Of a stretch of 21,823 nucleotides of DNA, positions 12,715-12,855 are shown piece by piece. Source of the DNA: Eledone cirrhosa (taxonomy: Eukaryota); assembly GCA_964016885.1 (NCBI GenBank), contig CAXHJY010001194.1, positions 1 through 21,823 on the forward strand, in the 5' to 3' direction. Position 1 is the first letter of the stretch; each line of letters opens with the position of its first letter. A program made the position numbers and the translations under genes. The notes beneath the pieces were generated by a model. That model had not been told where the DNA came from. It ran no database searches and worked only from the letters and a program-made list of their open reading frames with translations.

Positions 12715-12855
12715 GTGAGAAAAACCACAGACCCTCCATCTCAACTCACCTTTTGAAAAGCAGAAGAACTGCGAAACCGGTAAAGGAACCAAATAAATAT
12801 ATATATTTAAAAAAAAAGTAAGACTCCAGTTGCATTTTCGATTTCATCCCTTTTT

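What the first reader, a model, noticed from the sequence alone, without database searches (positions are those of the whole stretch)
12749..12786. Intact-looking minimal hammerhead ribozyme with a compensatory U3:A8 core
Seen: CCTT-TTGAAAA-GCAG(AAGAA)CTGC-GAAA-CCGGT-A-AAGG has every hammerhead element in order, except that CUGANGA is UUGAAAA. Known: C3 and G8 form a tertiary Watson-Crick pair in the active fold, and U3:A8 preserves pairing. Minimal PLE hammerheads have palindromic stem III loops (here ACCGGT) thought to permit dimeric cleavage. Inference: this is a functional variant that standard CUGANGA searches would miss, carried by a (TA)n-targeting retroelement.
Basis: partly seen in the sequence, partly recalled or inferred. 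Interest (0 to 1): 0.85.

Follow-up and report, generated by a model that had tools for sequence, protein, structure and literature searches.

The report
U3:A8 hammerhead of a Penelope retrotransposon
The motif is the hammerhead-ribozyme fold at the end of a very abundant Penelope-like retrotransposon, with a core swap already described in flatworm elements; it is conserved, but likely cuts only weakly, because most short copies span the predicted cut site intact.

Summary
The motif is real (12749-12786). It lies in a 148-bp copy (12713-12860) of the 3' terminal repeat of a Neptune-type Penelope-like element (ORF1, then RT + GIY-YIG), set in (TA)n. UUGAAAA is the family state: 12,181 exact matches genome-wide, against 91 C3:A8 and 54 G8 copies. 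A sister family (57% protein identity, fourfold sites saturated) keeps 26 of 30 core positions. Near relatives from other organisms carry CUGANGA with the same ACCGGU stem III. So U3:A8 is a fixed compensatory swap under selection. It is not new: U3-A8 minimal hammerheads in Penelope-like elements, with the same heptamer, were published in 2014. Cleavage is untested and three results weigh against efficient cutting. (1) 49 of 100 copies begin at a predicted TATA/Inr start about 72 nt upstream and only 4 near the cut, so uncleaved RNA is likely the main template. (2) A17 can pair with U3 and trap the core. (3) The sister family (11,729 matches) has C at the normally invariant A13. Verdict: new member of a known kind, with a testable twist.

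The parts
12713..12860 (+). Short copy of the 3' pseudo-LTR of a Neptune-type Penelope-like element (family 1). It starts 2 nt after the predicted +1 and ends at the first of two 3' ends, without the tail.
   Evidence: 54 matches at 91-100% identity, nearly all to this 148-bp span; boundaries; 98% identical to the pLTR of tandem unit L182
12749..12752 (+). Stem I, 5' strand (4 bp; 3 bp in the older subfamily)
12753..12759 (+). Core U3-U4-G5-A6-A7-A8-A9 (U3 = 12753, A8 = 12758)
   Evidence: 99 of the first 100 listed of 6,382 copies with a free 7-mer have this core
12760..12772 (+). Stem-loop II (4 bp, G10.1-C11.1, 5-nt loop); no extra base between A9 and stem II
   Evidence: pair 10.4 covaries G-C / U-A between families 1 and 2 (alignment)
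12773..12781 (+). G12-A13-A14, then palindromic stem III ACCGGT, predicted to pair between two molecules
   Evidence: cofold dimer -20.3 kcal/mol against 2 x -6.4 for monomers; same palindrome in L287, L288, L294
12782..12786 (+). A17 (predicted cut 12782|12783) and stem I, 3' strand
   Evidence: P(U3:A17) 0.56-0.61 in the monomer ensemble
12702..12712 (.). (TA)n at the 5' junction
12859..12933 (.). (TA)n target at the 3' junction
10554..10759 (-). Short copy of sister family 2; its hammerhead-like motif (about 10681-10718) has U3:A8, A17 and C at position 13
   Evidence: 100% identical over 206 nt to the pLTR of L281; 11,729 matches

Best explanation
This is the type-I minimal hammerhead fold in the terminal repeat of an abundant Neptune-type Penelope-like retrotransposon, with U3:A8 fixed in place of C3:G8, and it likely cuts only slowly or conditionally (as a dimer or with the element's protein), so that mostly uncut RNA is likely copied into new insertions. 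Steps: (1, shown) The motif lies 1.0-1.1 kb after the RT-EN stop and, in tandem units, 169 nt before the ORF1 ATG. (2, predicted) Transcription starts at a TATA/Inr promoter about 72 nt upstream of the cut site. (3, inferred from PMC11167929) Reverse transcription starts at one of two internal sites, 78 or 142 nt downstream of the cut, primed at nicked (TA)n DNA; run-off to the RNA 5' end gives the 150-215-bp copies, of which the window copy is one. (4, shown) These copies span the hammerhead intact. (5, inferred) The core is kept by selection; cleavage needs stem III pairing between two RNAs and release of U3 from A17.
For: Family state: 12,181 U3:A8 matches plus 11,729 in family 2, against 91 C3:A8 and 54 with G8, of which 30 of 30 examined have U3. 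CTGANGA-N8-24-GAAACCGGTA gives 16 matches against 8 for the control. Link to the element: RT-EN ORF upstream in many of the 30 loci; 775-aa frame with RVT_1 (E 1.3e-6, 28.7 bits, just under the 29.6 cut-off) and GIY-YIG (E 2.9e-6); tandem unit of 4,915 bp. Selection: families 1 and 2 share 57% over 628 aa, 33 of 109 fourfold sites, 26 of 30 core positions and 33-48% of non-promoter flanks. Covariation: among 96 related loci, 32 had a descriptor hit: 28 C3:G8, 3 U3:A8, 1 C3:A8; 0 hits in 70 kb shuffled (my score gave a bonus to paired 3:8, which biases against mismatches). In the same well-supported subclade L287, L288 and L294 have CTGANGA + ACCGGT. 5' ends: 49 of 100 copies at -75..-64, 9 at -63..-4, 4 at -3..+4; family 2 has 11 of 30 near its own TCAGAT. 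PMC11167929: a PLE hammerhead was protein-assisted, dispensable for insertion in vitro, and unprocessed RNA was the main substrate.
Against: No cleavage data. The start site is inferred from DNA spacing only. The promoter region is also conserved between the families (67-72%), so part of the core's conservation could be promoter constraint. Family 2 has C13 in 97 of the first 100 listed matches (read by eye), which argues that catalysis is not needed. The 100-copy sample is the first 28 Mb of C1 in genome order, and the two arms of an inverted pair count separately. There is a weak excess of ends near the cut: about 0.5 per nt at -3..+4 against 0.15 per nt at -63..-4, and 15 junction rows at 0-4 nt against 9 at 5-13 nt in 30 loci, duplicates included. 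A minor cleaved fraction is therefore possible.
Confidence: 0.6

Rival explanations
1. The fold is catalytically dead in this lineage and is kept as a structural element: an RNA dimerisation or protein-binding signal, or a downstream promoter element.
For: Family 2 reached 11,729 matches with C at invariant position 13. U3:A17 traps the family-1 monomer (P 0.56-0.61), by analogy with the C3-G17 trap (PMC3884650). Stem I is only 3 bp in the older subfamily and A-U only in family 2. There is no sharp pile-up at the cut.
Against: A double change that keeps the 3:8 pair is best explained by selection on the active-state tertiary pair. All other core bases are intact in family 1. U3:A17 pairing is not predicted in the older subfamily or family 2 (P 0.03 and 0.01). 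G17-type traps slowed but did not abolish cleavage in tertiary-stabilised ribozymes.
Confidence: 0.25
2. It is an efficient dimeric ribozyme that processes the transcript in vivo; the cut RNA is simply not the one that gets copied.
For: Intact core, favourable dimer (gain -7.5 kcal/mol), strong conservation, U3:A8 reported active in vitro (PMC3088659), and a weak excess of ends near the cut.
Against: Published minimal PLE hammerheads cleave poorly even as dimers (PMC4209133). The two motifs of a tandem unit lie 4.9 kb apart. The predicted dimer still holds U3:A17.
Confidence: 0.13
3. It is a chance look-alike or a decayed canonical hammerhead.
For: Folding z-score is unremarkable and Rfam gives no hammerhead match. 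Two older-subfamily copies (L046, L048) do have C3:G8.
Against: Copy counts, conservation across saturated divergence, canonical homologues in relatives.
Confidence: 0.02

Closest known systems
U3-A8 minimal hammerhead of S. mansoni Cercyon PLEs (Cervera and de la Pena 2014, PMC4209133)
   Same: Same UUGAAAA heptamer (row S. mansoni(4), Fig. S3), type-I minimal fold, palindromic stem III, location in a pLTR, mostly solitary copies.
   Different: There N17 = U, stem II is 6 bp with an extra base before it, and stem III is a 4-nt palindrome. Here N17 = A, stem II is 4 bp with no extra base, and stem III is 6 nt. None of the 56 rows of Fig. S3 combines U3 with A17.
Poseidon PAc element of Anolis (Frangieh et al. 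2024, PMC11167929)
   Same: Two internal RT start sites that define a tail, AT-rich targets, uncleaved RNA as the main substrate.
   Different: PAc has C3:G8, its hammerhead overlaps the ORF start and its tail is 30-40 bp. Here the hammerhead is in the 5' UTR, 169 nt before the ATG, and the tail is 64 nt.
Neptune/Nematis EN+ PLEs (Craig et al. 2021, PMC8557442)
   Same: RT, CX2-5CxxC linker, C-terminal GIY-YIG, partial tandems, inverted 5'-truncated copies, tail, (TA)n bias, start site in the pLTR, optional frameshifted ORF1.
   Different: The U3:A8 core. Neptune rather than Nematis is my recalled reading of the EN motifs and was not tested against named references.
Natural U3-A8 hammerheads (Perreault et al. 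2011, PMC3088659)
   Same: Same covariation, described as compensatory and active in vitro.
   Different: Rare cases there; here fixed in about 24,000 copies of two families.
Non-LTR retrozymes (bioRxiv 10.64898/2026.07.22.740005)
   Same: Short non-coding PLE-derived units with a type-I hammerhead.
   Different: Retrozymes are head-to-tail arrays. These copies are solitary or head-to-head and are truncation products of a coding element.

Membership tests
Type-I minimal hammerhead (PLE type) | Core N3-U-G-A-N-N8-A with a Watson-Crick 3:8 pair | tested here: met
   U3:A8; covaries with C3:G8 in relatives
Type-I minimal hammerhead (PLE type) | G12-A13-A14, A15.1-U16.1 and an NUH site | tested here: met
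   GAA, ACCGGT, GUA. The sister family fails at A13.
Type-I minimal hammerhead (PLE type) | Stem I, and stem II with G10.1-C11.1 | tested here: met
   4 bp each; P(G10.1-C11.1) 0.83. Stem I is weak in other subfamilies.
Type-I minimal hammerhead (PLE type) | Palindromic stem III that allows a dimer | tested here: met
   cofold
Type-I minimal hammerhead (PLE type) | Site-specific self-cleavage | not testable with these tools
   No assay; the genomic stand-in shows only a weak excess of ends near the cut
Rfam hammerhead covariance models | Match to an Rfam hammerhead model | tested here: not met
   None among 6 matches at E <= 10
EN+ Penelope-like element | RT with DKG motif and C-terminal GIY-YIG | tested here: met
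   L096 775-aa frame; RVT_1 just under its curated cut-off
EN+ Penelope-like element | pLTR from partial tandem, inverted 5'-truncated copies, optional tail | tested here: met
   L182 tandem unit of 4,915 bp; inversions; 61 of 100 with tail, 32 ending in TA, 7 other
Neptune/Nematis group | CX2-5CxxC linker between RT and EN | tested here: met
   C-x4-C-x2-C in both families
Neptune clade proper | RT phylogeny with named references | not tested
   No named reference sequences on hand; the tree has unnamed relatives only and is the quick tree
Non-LTR retrozyme | Head-to-tail tandem array of non-coding units | tested here: not met
   Solitary or head-to-head copies, continuous with a coding element

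The most novel reading that the evidence does not exclude
A self-locked hammerhead lineage: U3:A8 together with A17 lets U3 switch between an inactive pair with the cleavage-site base and the active pair with A8. The RNA stays uncut while it is copied from its capped 5' end and is cut only on protein or dimer binding. The sister family, with C13 fixed in about 11,700 copies, would be either an undescribed working core or a hammerhead retained for a non-catalytic job. The pair would be a natural experiment on why Penelope-like elements keep hammerheads at all.
Probability: 0.2. Interest if true: 0.65.

Novelty: new member of a known kind. Interest (0 to 1): 0.33.

Why it matters
The U3:A8 core is known, so the finding as posed is ordinary. 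What it adds is a test bed for an open question, the role of the hammerhead in Penelope-like transposition. Thousands of copies act as a fossil 5' RACE that agrees with the single in vitro study (uncut RNA is copied). Two sister families, one with A13 and one with C13, allow a direct test of whether catalysis or only the fold is selected.

Tried and rejected
Rfam on the whole window gave only microsatellite-driven miRNA-type matches among the 150 rows shown of 295, and no hammerhead on 12640-12860. I first took the GIY-YIG frame in L031 for the partner and searched with it. It belongs to another PLE family (821-aa frame) with a canonical CTGATGA hammerhead, so I rejected it. Lunse et al. 2016 (PMC5785218) is not held; it may list U3:A8, A17 or A13 variants. 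Supplementary file 1 of PMC4209133 could not be searched. The search of earlier findings returned nothing. The tree is the quick tree; 36 rows, L293 left out for short overlap. Two scripts stopped on errors; one search gave 7 of 9 folds.

Full report
Observation. The window is microsatellite-rich animal DNA, contig C1221 of a 3.0-Gb assembly; the animal group is not named by any search. The 38-nt motif is at 12749-12786 as described and is the only hit of my hammerhead descriptor in the window. H17 is A12782, so the predicted cut is 12782|12783. Its folding energy is not unusual and Rfam finds no hammerhead, but the motif has 12,181 exact matches in the genome against 0 for the control.

What carries it. 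The shared unit in the window is 12713-12860, between two (TA)n runs. Many copies occur head-to-head. [quoted passage not shown] A 399-aa ORF1 with no Pfam match precedes it in an overlapping frame. L182 holds a tandem unit of 4,915 bp, in which the upstream repeat puts the hammerhead 169 nt before the ORF1 ATG. Copies end at one of two sites, 78 or 142 nt after the cut: of 100, 32 end directly in TA, 61 carry the tail and 7 are other. This is the anatomy of EN+ Penelope-like elements in PMC8557442 (passages seen). 'Neptune-type' rests on the linker and on recalled EN motifs, not on a tree with named references.

Is U3:A8 the family state? Yes. With the core left free, 99 of the first 100 listed of 6,382 matches are TTGAAAA. 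Single changes are rare: 91 C3:A8 and 54 with G8, 30 of 30 examined with U3. The canonical core with this stem III has 16 matches against 8 for the control, and two of them are older copies of this lineage. The patterns differ slightly in their flanks, so these ratios are approximate.

Is it under selection? A sister family also has a copy in the window (10554-10759, minus strand) and 11,729 matches. Its ORF2 is 57% identical over 628 aa and only 33 of 109 fourfold sites agree, yet 26 of 30 positions from U3 to A17 are identical. Promoter-side segments are 67-72% identical and other flanks 33-48% (one natural copy of each family). Among 96 related loci from other organisms, 32 had a hammerhead hit: 28 C3:G8, 3 U3:A8 and 1 C3:A8, with N17 always U or C (the score favoured paired 3:8). 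A relaxed scan of 16 close relatives found CTGANGA in L287, L288, L289 and L294, three of them with the same ACCGGT, and one more U3:A8 candidate in L370. In the quick tree, families 1 and 2 are sisters (support 100) inside a clade (100) with those C3:G8 relatives, and the U3:A8 cores of L299, L328 and L335 lie on separate branches. So the swap is derived here and has likely arisen several times.

Does it cut? Untested. I anchored on a motif downstream of the cut (14,614 matches) and mapped the 5' ends of the first 100. 49 begin at -75..-64, 9 at -63..-4, 4 at -3..+4 (one exactly at the cut), 8 at +5..+21 (AT-rich, ambiguous), 13 at -459..-76, and 17 run beyond the scan. The peak starts 30 nt after TATAAAA at CCAGAT, and 21 of the 49 have microsatellite-like flanks rather than inversion junctions. 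Family 2 has 11 of 30 ends near its TCAGAT, 32 nt after CATAAAAA (those copies were chosen by an intact hammerhead). I read this as a Pol II start site (inference). The window copy begins at -70. A search built to catch ends within 13 nt upstream of the cut found 356 matches genome-wide. In the 30 loci examined, 24 rows were junctions (one site counted four times) and 8 were indels or duplications; junctions spread over 0-13 nt with only one at 0 and a mild excess at 0-4. So copies mostly come from RNA that spans the site uncut, and a small cleaved fraction is not excluded. This agrees with PMC11167929 (parts 1-2 of 4 read): protein-assisted cleavage, not needed for insertion, unprocessed RNA dominant.

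Two features lower the odds of efficient catalysis. First, U3 can pair with A17 (P 0.56-0.61 in the young subfamily; 0.03 and 0.01 in the older one and in family 2), like the C3-G17 trap discussed in PMC3884650 (passages). Second, family 2 has C at position 13 in 97 of the first 100 listed (by eye); A13 is part of the consensus core in PMC3088659.

Comparison with what is known. U3-A8 covariation in nature is in PMC3088659 (passages and section 8). In Penelope-like elements it is in PMC4209133 (main text parts 1-2 of 4, supplement 2 parts 1-2 of 3), with a dedicated descriptor, about 1,300 hits and the same heptamer. The same paper found low cleavage even in dimers. None of its 56 aligned rows has U3 with A17. 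My searches for U3-A17 and A13C in hammerheads showed no paper on them in the listings, but the library lacks most subscription journals and PMC5785218, so absence from print is not established. Also seen: PMC6765202 (passages), PMC7151607 (one passage), bioRxiv 10.64898/2026.07.22.740005 (part 1 of 5).

Verdict. A real, selected, PLE-type minimal hammerhead fold with a published core variant: a new member of a known kind. Identity is near certain; slow or conditional cleavage is my best mechanism (0.6), a non-catalytic retained fold next (0.25). Interest 0.33, mainly for the fossil 5'-end map and the A13/C13 sister pair.

Noticed in passing
window 10554-10759 (-); L281: Sister PLE family with U3:A8, A17 and C at core position 13, 11,729 matches genome-wide; same two-ORF layout.
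   Followed up: yes
L095-L097, L182, L185, L281 (ORF1/ORF2 overlap); L287, L291, L294: ORF2 overlaps the end of ORF1 in another frame at a T-run + AG heptamer of the slippery type, kept in both families and in three relatives; a programmed -1 frameshift is likely. No strong downstream structure was predicted. PMC8557442 Fig. 1 legend mentions a frameshifted ORF1 in PLEs.
   Followed up: partly
G000, e.g. L050-L064: A different, very young PLE family with an intact 821-aa frame in many copies (150 scored of 57,280 candidates, 97-100% identity) and a canonical CTGATGA hammerhead with A17.
   Followed up: partly
window 8043-8495 (+) and about 7810-7990, 5445-5590: N-terminal fragment of another PLE-like frame (KSDKT motif, reading recalled), cut by (TA)n, preceded by a decayed hammerhead-like repeat that also occurs near 5445.
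   Followed up: no
window 2209-2428 (+): Inverted fragments of the family-2 3' end that lack the hammerhead.
   Followed up: no
window 4079-4675, 9539-9721, 13526-13608, 14094-14617, 19038-19218: A 180-205-bp SINE-like repeat, solitary and in short tandem, also present in L064.
   Followed up: no
window 7315-7418, 10122-10231, 11863-12236: Inverted repeats: two short hairpin (MITE-like) elements, and an inversion at about 11780-11920 / 12100-12240 (seen).
   Followed up: no
L366-L381: Eukaryotic PLE RT-EN contigs with hammerheads sit inside bacterial MAG records, likely host DNA.
   Followed up: no
window 12713-12718: The predicted transcript opens with an AUG-UGA minimal ORF two bases after +1.
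   Followed up: no
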